Below, piece by piece: positions 1,143 through 35,764 of a stretch of 64,000 nt of DNA; positions within the stretch are counted from its first letter, which is position 1; each line of letters begins with the position of its first letter. The position numbers and the translations under genes are program-made. This DNA comes from Solimonas sp. K1W22B-7 (GTDB lineage: Bacteria; Pseudomonadota; Gammaproteobacteria; Nevskiales; Nevskiaceae): contig NZ_CP031704.1 in assembly GCF_003428335.1 (NCBI RefSeq), positions 4,474,071 to 4,538,070 of the forward strand, written 5' to 3'. The notes beneath the pieces are model-generated. The model was given only the letters and a program-made list of their open reading frames with translations. It was not told where the DNA came from and did not search any database.

Positions 1143-1219
1143 CCGTAGGAGCGGCTGTCAGCCGCGATGGGCGGCGGCCATAGTGCCCGGCGCTCGCGGC
1201 TAACAGCCGCTCCTACGGG
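1143..1219. repeat. REPIN-like palindrome, family 1 (GTAGGAGCGGC...GCCGCTCCTAC, SMAG-like GTAG-terminated REP pair)
   Basis: Two inverted copies of GTAGGAGCGGCTGT(C/T)AGCCGCGA in an intergenic region. Same family recurs at 11693, 19541, 21566 and 47358. Confidence 0.6.
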
Positions 1220-6049: not shown

Positions 6050-7042
6050 CTACCACTTGGCGTGATGCTGCTCCACCACCCCGAACCCCTCCACCTTCTT
6101 CACCCCATCCGTCGTCTTCAGCGTTCCCGTAAACCGCCCGAACGGCTGCGTGAAGCGGCTGGCCAGCAACCCCACCGAGATGTCCTCGCGCCGCTCGCCC
6201 TCCGGCACGAACTGCACATCGAGCACGCCATCGGCGGTATGCACGCGCCAGGGCTGCAGCAGCTGCGCCGGGTCGTACTGGAACACGGCCTGCGCCAGCG
6301 GCAGCAGGCGATCGCCGAGCCACATGGCGTTCTCGTGGCCGTTCATGAAATGCGCAACCAGATTCACGCCGATGCGCTGGCCGTCTTCGGTGACGCCATC
6401 GAGGCTGGCCCAGTTCCAGTCGGTGTGGCGCGGCGGGTAGCCCAGGGTGAAATCCAGCGTGCCGGTGGCGTCTTGCTCAATGCGCTGTCCGTCGATTTCC
6501 AGCGCCAGGCGCAGCGGCAGCGCACAGAGCTTCCAGGTGTGATGGAAGGGCCGGCCGGGTGAGGAGGCGATGGCGGTCATGCCGGGGCCGGCGTCGCGGA
6601 ACTCCATCTGCAGCTTCAGGCCCGGCGCCTCGAAGCGCACGTCCCAGCCGCTGCCGGCGGGTCGTGCATGCCAGTGGCGCTTGCCGCCGCGCAGCTGCCA
6701 GTCGGCATCCGGCGAGGGAGCGAAATCGGTAGCGAAGCCGAAGGGCACGGTGGCCTTGTGCTCGGTGAGCTTCTTCGCCTGGCGGTCGTAGACGTAGACG
6801 AAGGCGGTGGCCATCAGGCCGGCGTCGGCCACGGCGTAGCCGACCATGTAGCGCGGCGTGAAGGCGCCGAAGTACATCCAGCCCTTGCGCTGCAGGCGGC
6901 GCGGCGAGAAGGCGCCGCGGCTGCCGTCCCAGGCGGCGGTGGAGAGATCGAAGACGCGGCCCTCGTAGCGGCCGTAGTCGGCGACGCGGCCGGAGCCGGC
7001 ATGCAGGGCGGGCGGCGCGGCGGGGAGTCTGGAGTCGGTCAT
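6050..7042 (-). CDS. DUF2804-like protein
   Basis: 330 aa. ATG at 7042 (MTDSRLPAAPP) avoids overlap with the Kelch gene; W/F-rich beta-type sequence. Confidence 0.6.
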   Translation of the reverse strand: MTDSRLPAAPPALHAGSGRVADYGRYEGRVFDLSTAAWDGSRGAFSPRRLQRKGWMYFGAFTPRYMVGYAVADAGLMATAFVYVYDRQAKKLTEHKATVPFGFATDFAPSPDADWQLRGGKRHWHARPAGSGWDVRFEAPGLKLQMEFRDAGPGMTAIASSPGRPFHHTWKLCALPLRLALEIDGQRIEQDATGTLDFTLGYPPRHTDWNWASLDGVTEDGQRIGVNLVAHFMNGHENAMWLGDRLLPLAQAVFQYDPAQLLQPWRVHTADGVLDVQFVPEGERREDISVGLLASRFTQPFGRFTGTLKTTDGVKKVEGFGVVEQHHAKW

Positions 7043-8929: not shown

Positions 8930-9211
8930 GGCCCGCTCTCCTCGCCCGCTGTTTTGATGGGAGCATTGTGGCGAGGGGGCGGGAGCAGCGCTTGACCTTG
9001 GACGCCGGGGGGCGTGACAGCAGGCGCCACCCTTGTTTTTCCAGTTATATCAATGACTAACAACCCGCATCACGCCTATCAGACGGCCGGGATATCCCCT
9101 TCGAGACCCGGGAAGCACAGGCAAAGCTGACTCGGTCGGCAGCTTGTGCTTTGCCGCATGGCTGGCAGGATGCTCGCTGCAGCCCCGGAAAGAAGAGTGA
9201 AAGCAACCGAC

Positions 9212-9685
9212 ATGGAAATGCGCAGCAGCGAAACCCTGGTGATCCGCGGTAGCCGCCTGAATAGCCTGTTTGTCCTGTTTGCCTCCCTGATTTTCGTTTT
9301 CCTCGGCGTGATGTCTCTTGAGGACCACCCGATCCTGGCCTGGAGCGGCATCGGCTTCTTCGGCCTGGGCATTCCGGTCGGGCTGATCTTCCTGGTCCGT
9401 CCACCCGAACTGCGGCTGGATTCCCAGGGCTTCCAGATGGTCTCGCTGTTCAAGCCGGCGGTCTTCACTTGGGCGGAAGTGGAAGGCTTCTACATGACAG
9501 AGACTTCCGGGACGAAAATGATCGGCATCGTCTTCTCACCCGATTGCGAGAAGCTTCGGCGCAGCAGGCGCTGGACCGAGGCGTTCACCGGCGTGGCCGG
9601 CGCGGTGCCGGACATGTACACCAGGCCTGCCAGCGAAATCTGCGAGTTGCTCAATGAATGGCGGCGCCGGCACATTGGCCGCTAA
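9212..9685 (+). CDS. Hypothetical membrane protein (two N-terminal transmembrane helices, bacterial PH-like C-terminus)
   Basis: 157 aa from the ATG at 9212 (MEMRSSETL). Hydrophobic hairpin then a soluble domain. Codon usage consistent with the genome. Confidence 0.45.
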   Translation: MEMRSSETLVIRGSRLNSLFVLFASLIFVFLGVMSLEDHPILAWSGIGFFGLGIPVGLIFLVRPPELRLDSQGFQMVSLFKPAVFTWAEVEGFYMTETSGTKMIGIVFSPDCEKLRRSRRWTEAFTGVAGAVPDMYTRPASEICELLNEWRRRHIGR

Positions 9686-9721: not shown

Positions 9722-10186
9722 ATGAAACGGCAGCTACTCCTCCTCTCCTCGCTGGCCATGCTGTACGTGTTTCCGGCGCAGGCCGAAACCGTCGGCTGCG
9801 TCACCACGTCCTGGAAGCTGATCGGCGCCAACCACAAGGTCTGCGTGGAAGCCTTCACCGATACCAAGCTGCCGGGCGTGACCTGCCACGTCAGCCAGGC
9901 GAAGACCGGCGGCGTCGCCGGCACGTTCGGTCTGGCCCAGGACCCGGCGCAGTTCTCGCTGTCCTGCGAACAGACCGGGCCCATCGTGATCCCGGCGAAG
10001 ATGCCCGAGCAGGAAACCGTGTTCACGGAAGACACCTCGATCCTGTTCAAGGAAACGCGCGTGACGCGGATCTGGGACCCGAAGCACAACACGCTGGTGT
10101 ACCTGGCGATCAGCCGCAAGCTGATCGATGGCGCGCCGAACAACAGTGTGGCGACGGTGGCGGTGCGGCCGTGGGGTGGAAGGTAG
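9722..10186 (+). CDS. creA: CreA family periplasmic protein
   Basis: Signal peptide; conserved TRVTRIWDPKHNTLVYLAISRKLIDG segment typical of CreA. Confidence 0.75.
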   Translation: MKRQLLLLSSLAMLYVFPAQAETVGCVTTSWKLIGANHKVCVEAFTDTKLPGVTCHVSQAKTGGVAGTFGLAQDPAQFSLSCEQTGPIVIPAKMPEQETVFTEDTSILFKETRVTRIWDPKHNTLVYLAISRKLIDGAPNNSVATVAVRPWGGR

Positions 10187-10219
10187 GTGATACCCACATC
10201 TCGCAATTCTCCCAAAATT

Positions 10220-10966
10220 CTAGGGCCTTACAACAGTGAGCCTTTTCCCAAACATTGGGAATCGTTCTGCCAGGAGACTGCAAAAATCTTCTGTGACGAA
10301 GACAGAGATGACATCATCGTCTTTAAAAACATAGTTCCCAAATAGCCGCCATTCCCGTTCCATATAAACATTCTCTATTGCTTCATCTTCCACTTCCAAG
10401 GGGAAAGGCTTCACGAAGCTTAGTAGGTCTTTCTGGAAAATAGAATTTGCAGCAAAGATGGTTTCCTCCGCGTCAGGAGGATTCGACCCGACACGTCTGC
10501 TCCTCTTCTCCGTCAATCTTCGATGCTTACCATCTTCTCGGTTTAGCGCTTTTGCCACCACGGTAAGATCCTGCAGCAGAGCCCTTCCATTGGTCCCCCA
10601 ATGGTCGCCATCGAACGTGGGCACGTACAAAACTGGGCGCGCACCCTTCTCTGCTAACGATTTTTTATTGAAGGCTAACCCAAAGTACCCATACTTCTTA
10701 CAATGAACGACAGATAGTTCTTCGAATGGGATATCAGCGTAGCAAGTTACGGATGGAACAATAAAATCTTCCCTGCTAAGGCAACCGCCGCCATGAACGC
10801 TAAATTGAACGCCGCCTTGGACTCCTGCAGTTTCTCGACTGTAAGCCACCGTCCTGCTGGCAAGTATCGCGCATAGGGTTTCGAAGTTTCCCTGATGATC
10901 TAGAGGATTGCGAAATCCCACAAAGTGGCTCAGGTTCCGGGAAATGTAGCTTTGCTTTTTTTTCAT
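10220..10966 (-). CDS. AbiGi/DUF2971-like abortive-infection family protein (low-GC islet)
   Basis: Strong GC drop, AT-rich codons. N-terminal L..IL.S..V.YS motif, a VTCYADIPFEEL segment and a YGYFGLAFNKK...RPVLYV block resemble AbiGi/DUF2971 defence proteins. Start uncertain (10966, 11047 or TTG at 11095). Confidence 0.4.
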   Translation of the reverse strand: MKKKQSYISRNLSHFVGFRNPLDHQGNFETLCAILASRTVAYSRETAGVQGGVQFSVHGGGCLSREDFIVPSVTCYADIPFEELSVVHCKKYGYFGLAFNKKSLAEKGARPVLYVPTFDGDHWGTNGRALLQDLTVVAKALNREDGKHRRLTEKRSRRVGSNPPDAEETIFAANSIFQKDLLSFVKPFPLEVEDEAIENVYMEREWRLFGNYVFKDDDVISVFVTEDFCSLLAERFPMFGKRLTVVRP

Positions 10967-11081
10967 ATCATTTCGCAATACAACTACTCTGGTAGCCCAG
11001 ATTAATCGTGTAATGCAAAAGGGTACACTGCCGTGAGCAAGCTTCATGTGACCAGCATACAGGGTGGCCTGAATGCAACTA

Positions 11082-11167
11082 CGTAGGGTGGGCAAACGTC
11101 TTCATGTTTGCCCACGCGGTTGACGTTCCGACGCGTGGGCAAACGAAAAGACATTTGCCCACCCTAC
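11082..11167. repeat. Nested GTAG-terminated palindrome (four alternating TGGGCAAAC units)
   Basis: GTAGGGTGGGCAAACG...TTTGCCCACCCTAC outer inverted repeat with an inner inverted repeat. REPIN-like or bidirectional terminator bordering the low-GC gene. Confidence 0.45.
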
Positions 11168-11265
11168 GACCAGACAAGGACTAGCCGATAGCGCACCGGG
11201 CAATGGCGCCACTATCACGGTGGCAAAGTTTTGGGGCGCGACCCTGTAAGGCCGCGCCCGTCCCG

Positions 11266-11562
11266 CTAGTTGGTCTTCGGCACGTAGTACTCGTCCGGGC
11301 TCAGGACGCCATCGCCGTTATGGTCGCGCGTGGCGAAGCGCTTGTAGATCTGCGAGTCCGGCTTGACCTCGGACTTCTGCACCAGGCCGTCGCCGTTGGT
11401 GTCGGTCCACATGGCCTTGGTGGGCTCGCCCACTGCCGGTGCGCCGACCGTGGACGATCCTGGTGCGTCGAGCGAAGAGCCGGGCAAGGTGCCGACGCCG
11501 GCGAAGGGGGCGGTGGAGAAGAGGAATGCTGCCGCAGCGGTGCTGAAGGCCAACCGGTTCAT
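11266..11562 (-). CDS. Secreted EF-hand calcium-binding protein
   Basis: Signal peptide then two DxNGDGxV(S/Q) EF-hand loops. The 297-aa ORF-track product is an upstream artefact. Confidence 0.7.
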   Translation of the reverse strand: MNRLAFSTAAAAFLFSTAPFAGVGTLPGSSLDAPGSSTVGAPAVGEPTKAMWTDTNGDGLVQKSEVKPDSQIYKRFATRDHNGDGVLSPDEYYVPKTN

Positions 11563-11692: not shown

Positions 11693-11750
11693 CGGTAGGA
11701 GCGGCCGGTGGCCGCGACCTCGCCGGGTCGCGGCCACCGGCCGCTCCTAC
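11693..11750. repeat. REPIN, family 1
   Basis: GGTAGGAGCGGCCGGTGGCCGCGACC...GGTCGCGGCCACCGGCCGCTCCTAC. Confidence 0.55.
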
Positions 11751-11758
11751 AACAGGAC

Positions 11759-21565: not shown

Positions 21566-21640
21566 TGTAGGAGCGGCCGTTGGCCGCGAAGGCCGGTCAT
21601 CATGGCAACCGGCGCTCGCGGCTAACAGCCGCTCCTACGA
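21566..21640. repeat. REPIN, family 1
   Basis: TGTAGGAGCGGCCGTTGGCCGCGAAG...GCTCGCGGCTAACAGCCGCTCCTACG. Confidence 0.55.
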
Positions 21641-32806: not shown

Positions 32807-32846
32807 TTGGAGGATGCGACGCTCTGAGTGGCGCCGCAGGAACGAT

Positions 32847-34040
32847 ATGAGCATCAAGCAGGAAATCACCACCGGCAGCGTGCCGGTGAAGATCTGGACC
32901 GACGACGTCGACGAGGCCTCGCGCAAGCAGCTGGCGAACATTGCCGGCCTGCCGTTCGTGCACCACCACGTCGCCGCGATGCCGGACGTGCATCTGGGCA
33001 TCGGCGCGACCGTGGGCTCGGTGATCGCGACGCGCCAGGCGATCGTGCCTGCTGCGGTGGGCGTGGACATCGGCTGCGGCATGGCCGCGGCGCGTACCAC
33101 GCTGACTGCCGGGGACCTGGACGAGAAGCGTCTCAACAACGTCTTCCGCCAGATCAGCCGCGACGTGCCGGTGGGCCGCGACCAGCATCGTGGCGACCGT
33201 GCGCCGACCGAGGCGGCTGCCGCCTTCGACCCGGGCCTGAACGCGATCCTGGAGAAGCACCCGAAGCTGGAGTCGCGCAAGGACCCGAACGGCTGGATCT
33301 GTCAGCTGGGCAGCCTGGGTGGCGGCAACCACTTCATCGAACTGTGCCTGGATGAGGCCGGCCGCGTGTGGGTGATGCTGCACTCGGGTAGCCGCGGTAT
33401 CGGCAACCGCATCGGCACCTACTTCATCGAGCGCGCCCGCGAGAAGGCGCTGCGCATGGACCGCCAGCTGCCGGACATCGACCTGGCCTGGCTGGACGAG
33501 GGTTCGCCGGACTTCGACGACTATGTCGAGGCGGTGGGCTGGGCGCAGGACTACGCGCGCATGAATCGCGAGGTGATGCTGGGCCTGGTGCTGGCGGCGA
33601 TGCGCCGTCACCTGCGTCCGTTCGAGACCGTGGCGGAGGCGGTGAACTGCCACCACAACTACGTCTCGCGCGAGCATCACTACGAGGCCGACGTCTGGGT
33701 GACCCGCAAGGGCGCGATCCGCGCCGGCGAGGGCCAGCTGGGCATCATCCCGGGCAGCATGGGCGCCAAGAGCTTCATCGTGCGCGGCAAGGGCAACCCG
33801 GAAAGCTTCGAGTCCTGCTCGCACGGCGCCGGCCGCCGCATGAGCCGCACGCAGGCGCAGAAGAAGTACACCGCTACCGACCTGGTGCAGCAGACCGAGG
33901 GCGTGGTCTGCCGCAAGGACGCCGGCGTGGTCGACGAGATTCCGGCGGCGTACAAGGACATCGATGAAGTGATGGCCAACCAGACGGACCTGGTGGAGGT
34001 GGTGCACACGCTGAAGCAGGTGATGTGTGTGAAGGGGTGA
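32847..34040 (+). CDS. rtcB: RNA-splicing ligase RtcB (3'-phosphate/5'-OH RNA ligase)
   Basis: HHHVAAMPDVHLGIGATVGSV, GCGMA, NHF and CHHNY motifs of RtcB; ~397 aa. Confidence 0.85.
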   Translation: MSIKQEITTGSVPVKIWTDDVDEASRKQLANIAGLPFVHHHVAAMPDVHLGIGATVGSVIATRQAIVPAAVGVDIGCGMAAARTTLTAGDLDEKRLNNVFRQISRDVPVGRDQHRGDRAPTEAAAAFDPGLNAILEKHPKLESRKDPNGWICQLGSLGGGNHFIELCLDEAGRVWVMLHSGSRGIGNRIGTYFIERAREKALRMDRQLPDIDLAWLDEGSPDFDDYVEAVGWAQDYARMNREVMLGLVLAAMRRHLRPFETVAEAVNCHHNYVSREHHYEADVWVTRKGAIRAGEGQLGIIPGSMGAKSFIVRGKGNPESFESCSHGAGRRMSRTQAQKKYTATDLVQQTEGVVCRKDAGVVDEIPAAYKDIDEVMANQTDLVEVVHTLKQVMCVKG

Positions 34041-34184
34041 ATCGCCGCGCTTATGCGATGACTAAATGTCATCGCATGCGGCGATTCACGCCCGGCCATG
34101 GATGGCCGGGCCGGGGCTAGATCAGGAAGTGAAGTCCCGCCATGGATGGCGCCCCCGCTTTAGGCACAAGACAGGAGGAAGAAA

Positions 34185-35289
34185 GTTGAGTAAGAGCAGA
34201 AAGTTAAAGCTGCGAAAGCTTCGGCAGAAGAAACTTCGACAGCAAGATCGCCGGGCCAATGCATCATCTAGGACATCGAAAGGCGCTACCACAAGCACTA
34301 AGGTGTCCGTTGATCGCTTGGGGCCCTCTGGCGTGCCCGGTGTTCTATTGATTGTTCCTGAGTTTCCAGATCGGAAAATTTCTGACCAAGAAAAATTCAA
34401 GGATAAAAGCAAGCGAATGTTCAAGTTAAAGGCGCTGCTGGGGAAGCACTCCTCAAGAGAAGGAGGTATCTCCACCATCATGACTAGTGAAGATGGGGAT
34501 TCATTTATCGTTGCAGGCTATGAAGACACTGCGGGCATGCTTCATACGTCCGTAGGGAAGATGATTCTGAGACACAACGCAAAGAAGGAGCTTGCGCTGG
34601 TAGAGTTCGATTGCAATTCAACCTCCATCCATGAAGCGAAGCACCTGTTCTTAAAGGCGCTTACTCCCTTTCTTGATCATCTGAGCTTCTTGGCAAACAT
34701 CCCGCTACACATCGTGAGAGTGGGATGCCTAGACACAGTTCATCATATTGAATCCGTGGATTACGTTGGACCTCATGCCAATGTACAACTGAATCCACAC
34801 GCCTCCTCCATGGAGGAAGAGTTGATTCCTGTGTATGCGCTATACAGGGAAGCAAAAAACAATCCAAGCTCGCTGTACAAGTTTTTGTGCTACTACAAGA
34901 TTCTTGAAGGAATCTATAAGTCTTTACGACCAGCGCTCATGTCGCGTGCAAAGGATAAGGGTATTTCTATAGCGATGCACAAAGAGGTAGTGCCGAAATT
35001 GCATGACCCGCTTCCGGACCACGCTGAACTAGAGGAAAGGCAAATTAAGGAAGTTTTTAACGGCCGATTTCGTGAAGACTTTAGAAACCAGGCGGCCCAC
35101 TTCCTACTAGGCGAAGGCCTCCCGTTGAATGTCAGCGACTCGGAGATCTATTCCAAGTTCTCTAGGGAGTTGCCATTGATTGAAGTGTGCGTACGCATAG
35201 CGATGGAGACACATCGCGAGTATTTGCAAGACTATCAAAAGAAAGTTGCCAGCTTTCACGCGCAGACGGTCTCATCGCCTTCCGCCTAG
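34185..35289 (+). CDS. Low-GC hypothetical protein with HEPN-like Rx4H motif (Abi/defence-like)
   Basis: AGGAGG + 7 nt + TTG start. GC much lower than flanks. Lys-rich N-terminus, FRNQAAHF (R-x4-H) near the C-terminus. No further recognisable motifs. Confidence 0.4.
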
Positions 35290-35326
35290 TGAAAAAGGGG
35301 CAGTGCTTGCGCACCGCCCCTTTTGT

Positions 35327-35623
35327 TTACTCCGGGCTTCGCTTGAAGTTCTTCTTCGCTGCCTGCCTTAGACCGCCGAAATCCCCGCGGATCAACGCTT
35401 CCTTCTTCAGCCGGTTCCAGCGCTTGACCTGCATCTCCGAAGCCAAGGCTTCCTCGCGGCTCGAAAACTCCTGCGAGTACACCAGCAGCAGTGGCTTTCG
35501 CGTGGCGGTATAGCCTTCGAACGTACCGGCCTCATGCTGGGCAATGCGCTGATCGAGGTTGTCCGTATGCCCGGTGTAGTAGGAGCCGTCGGCGCAGCGC
35601 AGGATGTAGAGCCAGAACGGCAT
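35327..35623 (-). CDS. GIY-YIG nuclease family protein
   Basis: WLYILRCADGSYYTGHTDNLDQRIAQHE GIY-YIG motif plus conserved Glu/Asn. ATG at 35623. Confidence 0.75.
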   Translation of the reverse strand: MPFWLYILRCADGSYYTGHTDNLDQRIAQHEAGTFEGYTATRKPLLLVYSQEFSSREEALASEMQVKRWNRLKKEALIRGDFGGLRQAAKKNFKRSPE

Positions 35624-35654
35624 GGGTGACCTTGGTGAATGTGTGAGCCCCTCG

Positions 35655-35760
35655 ATACGCTGCGCTACTCGGGGTGAACGGGTCTTTAGAATCTTCCAGC
35701 GACCAACAGACCGTTCTCCCCGAGTGCCGCGTAGCGGTGTATCGAGGGGCTCACCATACC
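35655..35760. repeat. REPIN-like inverted pair, family 3
   Basis: GTGAGCCCCTCGATACGCTGCGCTACTCGGGGTGAACGGGTCT ... inverted copy ending ...CGAGGGGCTCAC. Confidence 0.5.
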
Positions 35761-35764
35761 TCAA

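What the first reader, a model, noticed from the sequence alone, without database searches (positions are those of the whole stretch)
10220..11167. Single-gene low-GC defence islet: AbiGi/DUF2971-like protein bordered by a nested GTAG palindrome
About 0.9 kb with sharply lower GC and AT-rich codon usage, inserted between creA and an EF-hand protein gene. It encodes a ~250-aa protein with the N-terminal L..IL.S..V.YS helix, a hydrophobic VTCYADIPFEEL segment and a YGYFGLAFNKK...RPVLYV block. These are characteristic of AbiGi/DUF2971 abortive-infection proteins.

One border is an 86-bp structure containing four alternating copies of TGGGCAAAC with GTAG...CTAC termini. It could be a REPIN that mediated or marks the insertion, or a strong bidirectional terminator.
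Basis: partly seen in the sequence, partly recalled or inferred. Interest (0 to 1): 0.58.

Follow-up and report, generated by a model that had tools for sequence, protein, structure and literature searches.

The report
Acquired stand-alone AbiGi-family (DarT-like) gene
A 0.9-kb piece of foreign, low-GC DNA in a Solimonas chromosome carries one intact gene of the AbiGi family, whose predicted fold is that of DNA-modifying ADP-ribosyltransferase toxins (DarT). It is a plausible but untested single-gene anti-phage candidate, the family is already known, and the gene is already annotated.

Summary
Window 10187-11082 has GC 0.47 against about 0.68 for the flanks. It holds one minus-strand ORF (10220-10966, 248 aa, GC3 0.49 versus 0.89-0.94 in neighbours) between creA and a small EF-hand gene. 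An 85-bp nested GTAG...CTAC palindrome (11083-11167) sits at the compositional border.

- **Family:** the protein passes Pfam AbiGi (43 bits, cut-off 22.4). It is 100% identical to a Solimonas sp. K1W22B-7 protein already named "AbiGi family".
- **Acquisition:** five syntenic Solimonas relatives lack the gene, and two have only about 20 bp between creA and the EF-hand gene.
- **Partner:** across 65 non-redundant homologue lineages no neighbouring gene recurs. I saw no AbiGii and no macrodomain antitoxin.

I read it as a horizontally acquired, stand-alone ART-fold effector, probably anti-phage. It is not an "antitoxin" and not a canonical AbiG system. The palindrome looks like a REP doublet (REPIN-like), specific to this locus, and lacks a terminator T-run. 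DUF2971 similarity was not detected. Verdict: new member of a known kind, of modest interest.

The parts
9722..10186 (+). creA, the conserved left flank. Homology with relatives ends at its stop codon.
   Evidence: PF05981 E=7.8e-49. It is 82-88% identical in five Solimonas relatives.
10187..10219 (.). 33-bp low-GC spacer between the convergent stop codons of creA and the AbiGi-family gene. This is the left edge of the strain-specific DNA.
   Evidence: GC 0.424. No counterpart in relatives.
10220..10966 (-). AbiGi-family (PF10899) gene, 248 aa, with a predicted ADP-ribosyltransferase fold closest to DarT. Stand-alone, with no partner gene.
   Evidence: Family and identity:
- Pfam 43.1 bits against GA 22.4.
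- 100% identical to the NCBI 'AbiGi family protein' of Solimonas sp. K1W22B-7.

Structure:
- AF2 pLDDT 91.5.
- All residues that are at least 95% conserved across 171 family members are retained.

Composition: GC3 0.486.
10967..11082 (-). 116-bp low-GC upstream region of the gene, the presumed promoter and 5' UTR. No consensus promoter was found.
   Evidence: GC 0.466. The sigma-70 scan found nothing on the minus strand here. Sequence read.
11083..11167 (.). 85-bp nested palindrome made of two inverted REP-like units. Each unit is a GTAG head plus a GTGGGCAAAC/GTTTGCCCAC hairpin (11088-11115 and 11135-11162). It is REPIN-like and sits at the low-GC/host-GC boundary.
   Evidence: - 37-nt arms, 89% complementary.
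- RNA fold -68.3 kcal/mol, z -9.9.
- No Rfam family.
- It is the only copy of this sequence in the window.
- Four other GTAG...CTAC palindromes of different sequence occur in the window.
- The hairpin is stronger than the upstream region of any of 56 homologue loci.
11168..11265 (.). 98-bp segment of host-like GC, also absent from relatives with empty sites. It contains a GC-rich hairpin at 11234-11259, just 3' of the EF-hand gene.
   Evidence: GC 0.653. Inverted repeat I11 at 11234-11243/11250-11259. Right-boundary alignment.
11266..11562 (-). Small secreted EF-hand-like protein gene, the conserved right flank.
   Evidence: EF-hand_5 scores 24.9 bits, just below the 25.9 cut-off. It is 76-84% identical and syntenic in five relatives.

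Best explanation
**What it is.** Positions 10187-11082 are a horizontally acquired, single-gene insertion in the creA/EF-hand intergenic slot of Solimonas sp. K1W22B-7. The gene encodes an intact member of the AbiGi family (PF10899).

**Predicted enzyme.** The protein is predicted to adopt an ADP-ribosyltransferase fold, most like the DNA-ADP-ribosylating toxin DarT. The candidate catalytic residues are H14 (strand 1), C75/Y92, and E203-R-E205 at the start of the motif-III strand.

**Proposed mechanism.** The most likely mechanism is a stand-alone, normally quiescent NAD+-dependent ADP-ribosylating effector. On phage infection it would modify a nucleic acid or protein and so block phage replication or host growth, in the manner of abortive infection. 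It would do this without the AbiGii partner of the lactococcal system and without a DarG-type hydrolase antitoxin.

**The palindrome.** The adjacent 85-bp palindrome is a host-type REP doublet (REPIN-like) that marks the border of the insertion. It may insulate the gene from read-through from the EF-hand gene. It is not part of the protein's function.

**Shown versus inferred.**
- Shown: foreign composition, absence from relatives, family membership, ART fold, conservation of motif residues, and absence of any conserved partner.
- Inferred: catalytic activity, the target, the phage trigger, and the defence role.
For: **Acquisition.**
- GC3 is 0.486, against 0.89-0.94 in neighbours.
- Five relatives (L012, L013, L014, L016, L018) keep the order desaturase-creA-EF-hand-WS/DGAT but lack the gene.
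- L014 and L018 have only about 20 bp in this slot.
- Homology breaks exactly at the two stop codons.
- The nearest homologue anywhere is only 46% identical.

**Family.** Pfam AbiGi scores 43.1 bits against a cut-off of 22.4, and PADLOC AbiGi gives 1.4e-8.

**Fold.**
- The AF2 model has pLDDT 91.5 and pTM 0.87.

**Literature.** AbiGi has been grouped with DUF4433, which to my knowledge is the Pfam family now named DarT, as an ART-fold family (PMC6192313). It is also listed among known ART families (10.1101/2024.07.30.605764).

**Intactness.** H14, C75, D78, H88, Y92, Y114, E203, E205, W206 and R207 are conserved in at least 97% of 171 family members, and all are present here.

**Stand-alone status.**
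- Among 93 loci in 65 lineages at 80% identity, no neighbouring family recurs across lineages.
- The family is large, with 530 clusters at 50% identity at E<=1e-30, and is almost always a single domain of 230-290 aa.

**Defence flavour.**
- Homologues lie next to MmeI, AbiV, AbiU, TIR, SIR2, type I R-M and HicAB genes in several loci.
- In relative L016 the slot on the other side of creA holds a TIR protein.
Against: - **No experiment exists for this subfamily.** The only experimental data on AbiGi come from a distant homologue that works with AbiGii.
- **Lactococcal AbiGi alone was not toxic in E. coli** (PMC3985639).
- **Catalytic residues are not mapped.** They were assigned from conservation and secondary-structure order, not from a superposition.
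- **No expression signals were found.** No promoter or Shine-Dalgarno consensus lies upstream.
- **Many neighbours are housekeeping genes.** Examples are PEPCK, SbcB and CinA, and defence enrichment was not tested against a background.
- **The control of a stand-alone toxin-like enzyme is unexplained.**
Confidence: 0.5

Rival explanations
1. It is what the database name says: an orphan 'antitoxin' left over from a two-gene AbiGi/AbiGii toxin-antitoxin or abortive-infection pair. It would be without activity of its own, or would act only to neutralise a toxin encoded elsewhere.
For: - The Pfam and NCBI names call the family 'antitoxin'.
- Canonical AbiG is bicistronic, abiGi-abiGii (PMC3985639; PMC13064643).
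- AbiGi alone was not toxic in E. coli.
Against: - No AbiGii or any recurrent partner was found next to homologues in 65 lineages, so solitude is the norm for this subfamily rather than a loss.
- The fold is that of an enzyme (ART, DarT-like), with near-invariant H...Y...ExE-type residues under conservation.
- Neither AbiG protein has been shown to be a toxin or an antitoxin.
- The truncated PADLOC and Pfam summaries could hide a single weak AbiGii hit, but not a recurrent one.
Confidence: 0.1
2. It is an active ART-fold enzyme, or an NADase, whose role is not phage defence. Possible roles are an addiction or selfish module, an inter-bacterial toxin, or a regulator that ADP-ribosylates a host target.
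For: - Many homologue neighbourhoods are housekeeping.
- The family is nearly absent from sequenced phages and plasmids.
Against: - My reading of the 248-aa sequence shows no signal peptide, secretion domain or adjacent immunity gene.
- The patchy, horizontally mobile, single-gene distribution and the R-M, Abi, TIR and SIR2 neighbours in several loci fit defence better.
- The only characterised relative is anti-phage.
Confidence: 0.22
3. The gene is inert cargo: a recently acquired, unexpressed or decaying gene with no current function in Solimonas.
For: - No consensus promoter or ribosome-binding site lies upstream.
- The codon usage is far from the host's (GC3 0.49 versus 0.9).
- A very strong hairpin sits between it and the upstream gene.
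Against: - The ORF is full length, with no frameshift or premature stop.
- It keeps every family-invariant residue.
- It differs from the family consensus at only 4 positions that are at least 70% conserved.
Confidence: 0.1
4. The 85-bp palindrome is not a REP doublet. It would instead be a functional partner of the gene, either a bidirectional intrinsic terminator or a type-III-like RNA antitoxin or regulator transcribed upstream of the gene.
For: - It lies directly between the 3' end of the EF-hand gene and the 5' end of the AbiGi-family gene on the same strand.
- It folds very stably (-68 kcal/mol).
- It contains two 28-nt direct copies that are 75% identical.
- Several lactococcal Abi systems pair a protein with an RNA.
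Against: - No T-run or terminator match was found.
- There is no tandem array and no Rfam family.
- None of 56 homologue loci has an upstream hairpin as strong (best -53.5, median -34 kcal/mol per 100 nt, against -66.7 here), so it is not a family feature.
- GTAG-headed palindromes of the same architecture occur at four other intergenic sites in the window, and in the same slot of relative L016.
Confidence: 0.12

Closest known systems
Lactococcal AbiG (AbiGi + AbiGii) abortive-infection system, plasmid pCI750
   Same: The protein falls in the same Pfam family as AbiGi (PF10899, above the gathering threshold), and the PADLOC AbiGi model also hits. [quoted passage not shown]
   Different: - The relationship is only distant: the NCBIfam AbiGI equivalog scores 14 bits against a cut-off of 300, and the PADLOC hit covers residues 71-115 only.
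- There is no AbiGii partner here or in homologue loci.
- The host is Gram-negative and the gene is chromosomal rather than on a lactococcal plasmid.
DarT of the DarTG toxin-antitoxin/defence system (ssDNA thymidine/guanosine ADP-ribosyltransferase)
   Different: - Sequence identity is 7-18%, and there is no sequence-level hit to any PDB chain.
- There is no adjacent macrodomain (DarG) or other ADP-ribosyl hydrolase, here or in 65 lineages.
- The protein has a long helical insert (residues about 127-184).
- Activity and substrate are unknown.
DUF2971 (PF11185) ART-like family
   Same: The literature reports remote similarity between DUF2971, AbiGi and DarT. A DUF2971 gene lies two genes upstream of one homologue, in L010.
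   Different: There is no Pfam DUF2971 hit at E<=1. hhalign of the family profile against a DUF2971 protein gives probability 0.2.
REP / REPIN elements (GTAG-headed repetitive extragenic palindromes mobilised by RAYT transposases; e.g. Stenotrophomonas SMAG repeats). This comparison is from my own knowledge.
   Same: Each unit has a GTAG head followed by a hairpin, and two units sit in inverted orientation to form one long hairpin. The element is intergenic, near the ends of convergent or co-directional genes. Other GTAG palindromes occur in the window and in relatives.
   Different: Only one copy of this particular sequence occurs in 64 kb, and none in the relatives' loci. No RAYT gene was examined, and its GC (0.565) is lower than that of the other, GC-rich REPs of this genome.

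Membership tests
Pfam AbiGi (PF10899) | Whole-protein score above the curated gathering threshold | tested here: met
   43.1 bits against 22.4, E=6.2e-11, residues 73-223 on profile positions 30-148 of 185. All 31 database homologues also carry PF10899.
Lactococcal AbiG two-gene system | AbiGi orthologue (NCBIfam equivalog NF042957) | tested here: not met
   14 bits against a cut-off of 300.
Lactococcal AbiG two-gene system | Adjacent, co-transcribed AbiGii partner gene | tested here: not met
   The neighbours are creA and an EF-hand gene, and no other credible ORF lies in 10187-11265. No recurrent neighbour was found in 65 homologue lineages.
Lactococcal AbiG two-gene system | [quoted passage not shown] | not testable with these tools
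   This needs phage challenge. It is known only for the lactococcal system.
ADP-ribosyltransferase (ART) superfamily, DarT-like | ART core fold | tested here: met
ADP-ribosyltransferase (ART) superfamily, DarT-like | Catalytic triad-type motifs (H or R on strand 1; Y or S-x-S on strand 2/3; E or ExE on strand 5) | tested here: inconclusive
   H14 (98%), C75 (99%), Y92 (99%) and E203/E205 (99%) are conserved, lie on or next to predicted strands in the expected order, and are present in the query. No residue-level superposition on a DarT-NAD+ complex was possible.
ADP-ribosyltransferase (ART) superfamily, DarT-like | NAD+-dependent ADP-ribosyl transfer | not testable with these tools
   A biochemical assay is required.
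DarTG toxin-antitoxin system | Adjacent macrodomain (DarG) antitoxin | tested here: not met
   No such gene lies in the islet. No macro, ARH or NADAR family appears among the families listed for 52 adjacent neighbours (25 of 34 matching families shown), nor among the PADLOC families listed for 150 neighbours within three genes (25 of 94 shown).
DUF2971 (PF11185) | Profile match | tested here: not met
   No hit at E<=1. hhalign probability is 0.2 against a bona fide DUF2971 protein.
REP / REPIN | GTAG head plus hairpin unit, with two units in inverted orientation | tested here: met
   Arms 11082-11118 and 11132-11168 are 89% complementary. The inner hairpins are at 11088-11115 and 11135-11162, and the termini are GTAG and CTAC.
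REP / REPIN | Many dispersed copies of the same sequence in the genome | tested here: inconclusive
   This is the only copy of the sequence in the 64-kb window. Four other GTAG palindromes of different sequence are present. The rest of the 5.37-Mb genome was not available.
REP / REPIN | Cognate RAYT (Y1 transposase) in the genome | not tested
Intrinsic (rho-independent) terminator | GC-rich stem-loop followed by a T-run | tested here: not met
   The terminator scan finds nothing at 11083-11167 on either strand. The flanking bases are not T-rich.
Genomic islet acquired by horizontal transfer | Deviant composition and presence/absence polymorphism at a conserved locus | tested here: met
   GC3 is 0.486 against about 0.9. 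The gene is absent from five syntenic relatives, two of which have empty sites.
Genomic islet acquired by horizontal transfer | Mobility signatures (integrase or transposase, tRNA target, direct repeats) | tested here: not met
   There is no tRNA nearby, no flanking direct repeats, and no mobility gene in the 1.08-kb insert.

The most novel reading that the evidence does not exclude
This gene represents a large, uncharacterised clade of AbiGi-family proteins. The clade has at least 530 clusters at 50% identity, nearly all single-domain. Its members would act as self-contained, single-protein anti-phage ADP-ribosyltransferases related to DarT. They would need neither an AbiGii partner nor a DarG-type hydrolase antitoxin. 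The roughly 60-residue helical insert would serve as a built-in sensor or auto-inhibitor released by a phage protein. If so, the 'antitoxin' label carried by thousands of database entries would be wrong.
Probability: 0.35. Interest if true: 0.55.

Novelty: new member of a known kind. Interest (0 to 1): 0.3.

Why it matters
In itself this is a small, already annotated accessory gene. Three points give it modest value.

1. **A clean example of single-gene acquisition.** The gene entered a conserved intergenic slot with no mobility genes. Empty sites in sister species define the boundaries to the base.

2. **A misleading family name.**
   - The family name says "antitoxin", but the structure prediction and conserved residues point to a DarT-like ADP-ribosyltransferase.
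   - This subfamily is consistently solitary.
   - That makes the gene a concrete, easily cloned candidate (747 bp) for testing whether AbiGi-family proteins are the enzymatic effector of AbiG-type defence.
   - It would also test whether an ART toxin can be kept in check without a hydrolase antitoxin.

3. **A variable hotspot.** Both sides of creA appear to be variable slots in Solimonas. One relative carries a TIR protein there, which may help locate further accessory or defence genes in this little-studied genus.

Tried and rejected
- **Exact-protein lookup.** Looking up the exact window protein in the contig index found nothing, although P0001 is 100% identical.
- **Sequence search of the PDB.** A search with the family profile gave only chance hits at E of about 1.
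- **Foldseek.** Foldseek against the PDB had no hit at E<=0.001, only weak KptA/Tpt1 rows. Foldseek against viral structures gave nothing significant. AFDB50 was unavailable.
- **Rfam.** The only hit was a sub-threshold miRNA-like match on a different palindrome, at 11694-11751.
- **Conserved partner gene.**
  - I first suspected the 184-212-aa upstream ORFs in L003-L008, but they are unrelated to each other and have no Pfam family.
  - A systematic neighbour clustering over 93 loci found only clusters of near-identical loci.
  - No Pfam or PADLOC family recurs, except mad2 in 2 of 150 proteins.
- **Type-III-like RNA antitoxin or conserved upstream structure.** Rejected, because homologue loci lack comparable hairpins and there is no tandem array.
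- **Intrinsic terminator.** Rejected.
- **DUF2971 relation.** Not detected.
- **REP copies elsewhere.** The single GGGTGGGCAAA hit in the fetched loci (L035) lies in what reads as ordinary non-palindromic sequence downstream of an ATG, and looks like a chance match.
- **Phage and plasmid carriage.** There was no phage hit and one weak plasmid hit. IMG/VR gave eight loci, only two of them full length.
- **Early AbiG papers.** The O'Connor 1996 and 1999 papers are not held, so I could not check whether abiGi alone gives any resistance.
Full report
**1. What is in the sequence**

The window has a mean GC of 0.678. Between about 10200 and 11100, GC drops to 0.45-0.51.

The only credible ORF in this stretch is on the minus strand, at 10220-10966 (ATG start, 248 aa). 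The mechanical ORF runs on to a TTG at 11095. Homologues and the identical NCBI protein begin at the ATG.

Its GC3 is 0.486. The genes around it that relatives share (desaturase, creA, EF-hand, WS/DGAT and a large hydrolase-like gene) have GC3 of 0.89-0.94.

- The left neighbour is creA (9722-10186 +; PF05981, E=7.8e-49).
- The right neighbour (11266-11562 -) is a small secreted protein with two DxNGDG loops. It scores just under the Pfam EF-hand thresholds.

The palindrome lies at 11083-11167, 85 bp long:
- Its arms are 37 nt and 89% complementary.
- Each arm is itself a hairpin, GTGGGCAAAC-loop-GTTTGCCCAC.
- As RNA it folds at -68.3 kcal/mol with z = -9.9.

**2. The islet is acquired DNA**

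The protein is 100% identical to a protein of Solimonas sp. K1W22B-7 (Nevskiales). NCBI already names it "abortive infection system antitoxin AbiGi family protein". The next-best match in 5.8 billion proteins is only 46% identical.

A scan of species-representative genomes with CreA returned five Solimonas-group relatives: L012, L013, L014, L016 and L018.
- All five keep the order desaturase-creA-EF-hand-WS/DGAT-hydrolase at 76-90% protein identity.
- None has the AbiGi-family gene.

The creA/EF-hand spacer varies between them:
- In L014 and L018 it is about 20 bp.
- In L012 and L013 it is about 270 bp.
- In L016 it is about 930 bp and holds a TonB_C protein plus a different GTAG palindrome.

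Alignments show that homology to the window stops at the creA stop codon (10186) and resumes at the EF-hand stop codon (about 11266). The whole 1,079-bp interval is therefore strain-specific.

Within that interval:
- 10187-11082 has GC 0.473.
- The palindrome has GC 0.565.
- 11168-11265 has GC 0.653, which is host-like.

The palindrome thus sits exactly on the compositional border. No tRNA, integrase, transposase or flanking direct repeats are present. The route of insertion is unknown.

**3. What the protein is**

*Family membership*
- Pfam AbiGi (PF10899) is passed: 43.1 bits against a cut-off of 22.4.
- PADLOC's AbiGi model hits residues 71-115 at 1.4e-8.
- The NCBIfam equivalog for lactococcal AbiGI is far from met, at 14 bits against 300.
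- DUF2971 is not hit at all, and hhalign against a genuine DUF2971 protein gives probability 0.2.

*Predicted structure*
- An AlphaFold2 model built on 29 homologues is confident (pLDDT 91.5, pTM 0.87).
- Foldseek was not sensitive enough, giving only weak KptA rows.

*Agreement with the literature*
- PMC6192313 groups AbiGi with DUF4433, which to my knowledge is the Pfam family now named DarT, as one ART-fold family.
- A Legionella ART survey lists AbiGi among known ART families.
- A 2026 review of lactococcal Abi systems still reports no structural similarity for AbiGi and AbiGii.

*Family size and conservation*
- A profile search of 1.84 billion representative proteins finds 3,770 relatives at E<=1e-3 and 530 at E<=1e-30.
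- Almost all of the 150 best matches listed are 230-290 aa and single-domain.
- In a 171-sequence alignment, H14, C75, D78, H88, Y92, Y114, E203, R204, E205, W206 and R207 are 97-100% conserved. The window protein keeps every one of them.
- In the model, H14 lies on the first strand, C75 on the strand before a helix, and E203-R-E205 at the start of a late strand. This is the order expected for ART motifs I, II and III.
- I could not make a residue-level superposition, so the motif assignment remains an inference.

**4. It is a stand-alone gene**

Canonical AbiG is a two-gene system, abiGi-abiGii. Here there is no second gene.

To see whether that is a loss or the rule, I collected 93 loci encoding homologues. 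I then called ORFs, reduced the loci to 65 lineages at 80% identity, and clustered the neighbours.
- The only neighbour clusters are near-identical copies of the same locus from different samples.
- Among 52 adjacent co-directional neighbours, no Pfam family occurs twice.
- Among 150 neighbours within three genes, no PADLOC family occurs in more than two.
- No macrodomain or other ADP-ribosyl hydrolase appears among the families those two summaries list. Each summary shows only the first 25 families.

Some neighbours are defence or mobile genes: HicAB, type I and IIG R-M, MmeI, AbiV, AbiU, TIR, SIR2, integrase and DUF2971. Others are plain housekeeping genes such as PEPCK, SbcB and CinA. I did not test enrichment against a background.

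The family is essentially absent from sequenced phages and plasmids. It is rare in IMG/VR, with eight loci of which two are full length.

**5. The palindrome**

Each half is a GTAG head followed by a hairpin. The two halves are inverted, with the GTAG heads outward. From my own knowledge, this is the architecture of REP doublets (REPINs) recognised by RAYT transposases, as in the GTAG-headed SMAG repeats of Stenotrophomonas.

Evidence on its nature:
- Four other GTAG...CTAC palindromes of different sequence occur in the window.
- One occupies the same slot in relative L016.
- This particular sequence occurs only once in 64 kb and not at all in the relatives' loci.
- There is no T-run or terminator match, no Rfam family and no tandem array.
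- Its stability (-66.7 kcal/mol per 100 nt) exceeds that of the upstream region of every one of 56 homologue loci, where the best is -53.5 and the median -34.

It is therefore a property of this locus and not of the gene family. That argues against an RNA-partner role.

Whether it arrived with the gene, preceded it, or targeted the insertion cannot be decided without the whole genome.

**6. Mechanism and rivals**

*Best reading (confidence about 0.5).* This is an acquired, self-contained ART-fold effector that acts in phage defence by NAD+-dependent ADP-ribosylation. Its target and trigger are unknown.

- Shown: acquisition, family membership, fold, conserved motif residues, and solitude.
- Inferred: catalysis, the defence role, and regulation.

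*Evidence against.*
- No experiment exists on this clade.
- Lactococcal AbiGi alone was not toxic in E. coli.
- There are no recognisable expression signals.

*Rivals.*
- An orphan "antitoxin" remnant (0.10).
- An ART or NADase with a non-defence role (0.22).
- Inert cargo (0.10).
- For the palindrome, a terminator or RNA partner rather than a REP doublet (0.12).

**7. Novelty and verdict**

The gene is already annotated, and the family's ART affinity is already published. This is a new member of a known kind.

What is modestly useful:
- a base-precise demonstration of the insertion;
- independent structural support for a DarT-like fold;
- evidence that this large clade is consistently solitary, which makes the "antitoxin" name doubtful and gives a simple testable candidate.

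Interest is 0.3.

The most novel reading that the evidence does not exclude is a widespread single-protein DarT-like defence lacking any antitoxin. I give it a probability of about 0.35 and an interest of 0.55 if true.

Noticed in passing
window 33900-35300 (ORF 34066-35289 +): A second low-GC islet, with GC 0.46-0.50 and the lowest 750-bp GC value in the window. It encodes a protein with a C-terminal MauJ domain (PF17419, E=5.5e-19). It sits between an RtcB-like gene (32814-34040 +, identified from my reading of the translation) and a GIY-YIG nuclease gene (35327-35764 -; PF01541, 1.2e-17). It may be another acquired accessory or defence-type gene.
   Followed up: partly
window 9146-9685 (+): A 179-aa ORF between the desaturase gene and creA. 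It has no Pfam family and a somewhat lower GC3 (0.78 versus about 0.9). It has no tblastn match in the five syntenic Solimonas relatives, so the slot on the other side of creA is also variable.
   Followed up: partly
L016 1883-3888 and 4397-5320: In the relative MAG Solimonas SMAG_U15734, the desaturase-creA gap carries a 223-aa ORF that looks membrane-like from its translation and a 352-aa TIR_2-domain protein (PF13676, 2e-23). The creA/EF-hand gap carries a TonB_C protein plus a GTAGCCCGG...CCGGGCTAC palindrome. Both sides of creA behave as insertion hotspots in the genus.
   Followed up: partly
window 1145-1216, 2607-2684, 11695-11750, 21567-21638: Four further GTAG...CTAC palindromes. Three are of the GTAGGAGCGGC...GCCGCTCCTAC type and one is of the GTAGCCCGG type. 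This indicates that REP-like element families populate this genome. The one at 11695-11750 is a perfect 25-bp-arm hairpin between the EF-hand gene and the WS/DGAT gene.
   Followed up: partly
L012 and L013, about 6440-6660: In two relatives the creA/EF-hand spacer holds an ORF of roughly 70 codons (...VVFIGAFCALAVVWQFLSGHIVLGLQG...LLLAEAAALIWLFIG) that looks like a small membrane protein. It is a third kind of occupant of the same slot. It was not analysed further.
   Followed up: no
L124, L130, L133, L138, L158, L177 (e.g. L133 5758-6402): In one lineage of homologues, a 214-aa ORF with no Pfam family follows the AbiGi-family gene on the same strand. The gap is 22 bp in the five loci where both genes are whole, and the two ORFs overlap slightly in L177. 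The ORFs are 84-100% identical among these loci. This is the only tight downstream pairing seen, and it could be a lineage-specific partner.
   Followed up: partly
window 10220-10966 versus the contig index: The exact-sequence lookup reported no gene with this product on record. Yet the homology search returned a 248-aa NCBI protein at 100% identity and 100% coverage. The genome of origin also did not appear among the CreA hits in the species-representative genome set, where the best hit was 88% identical.
   Followed up: no
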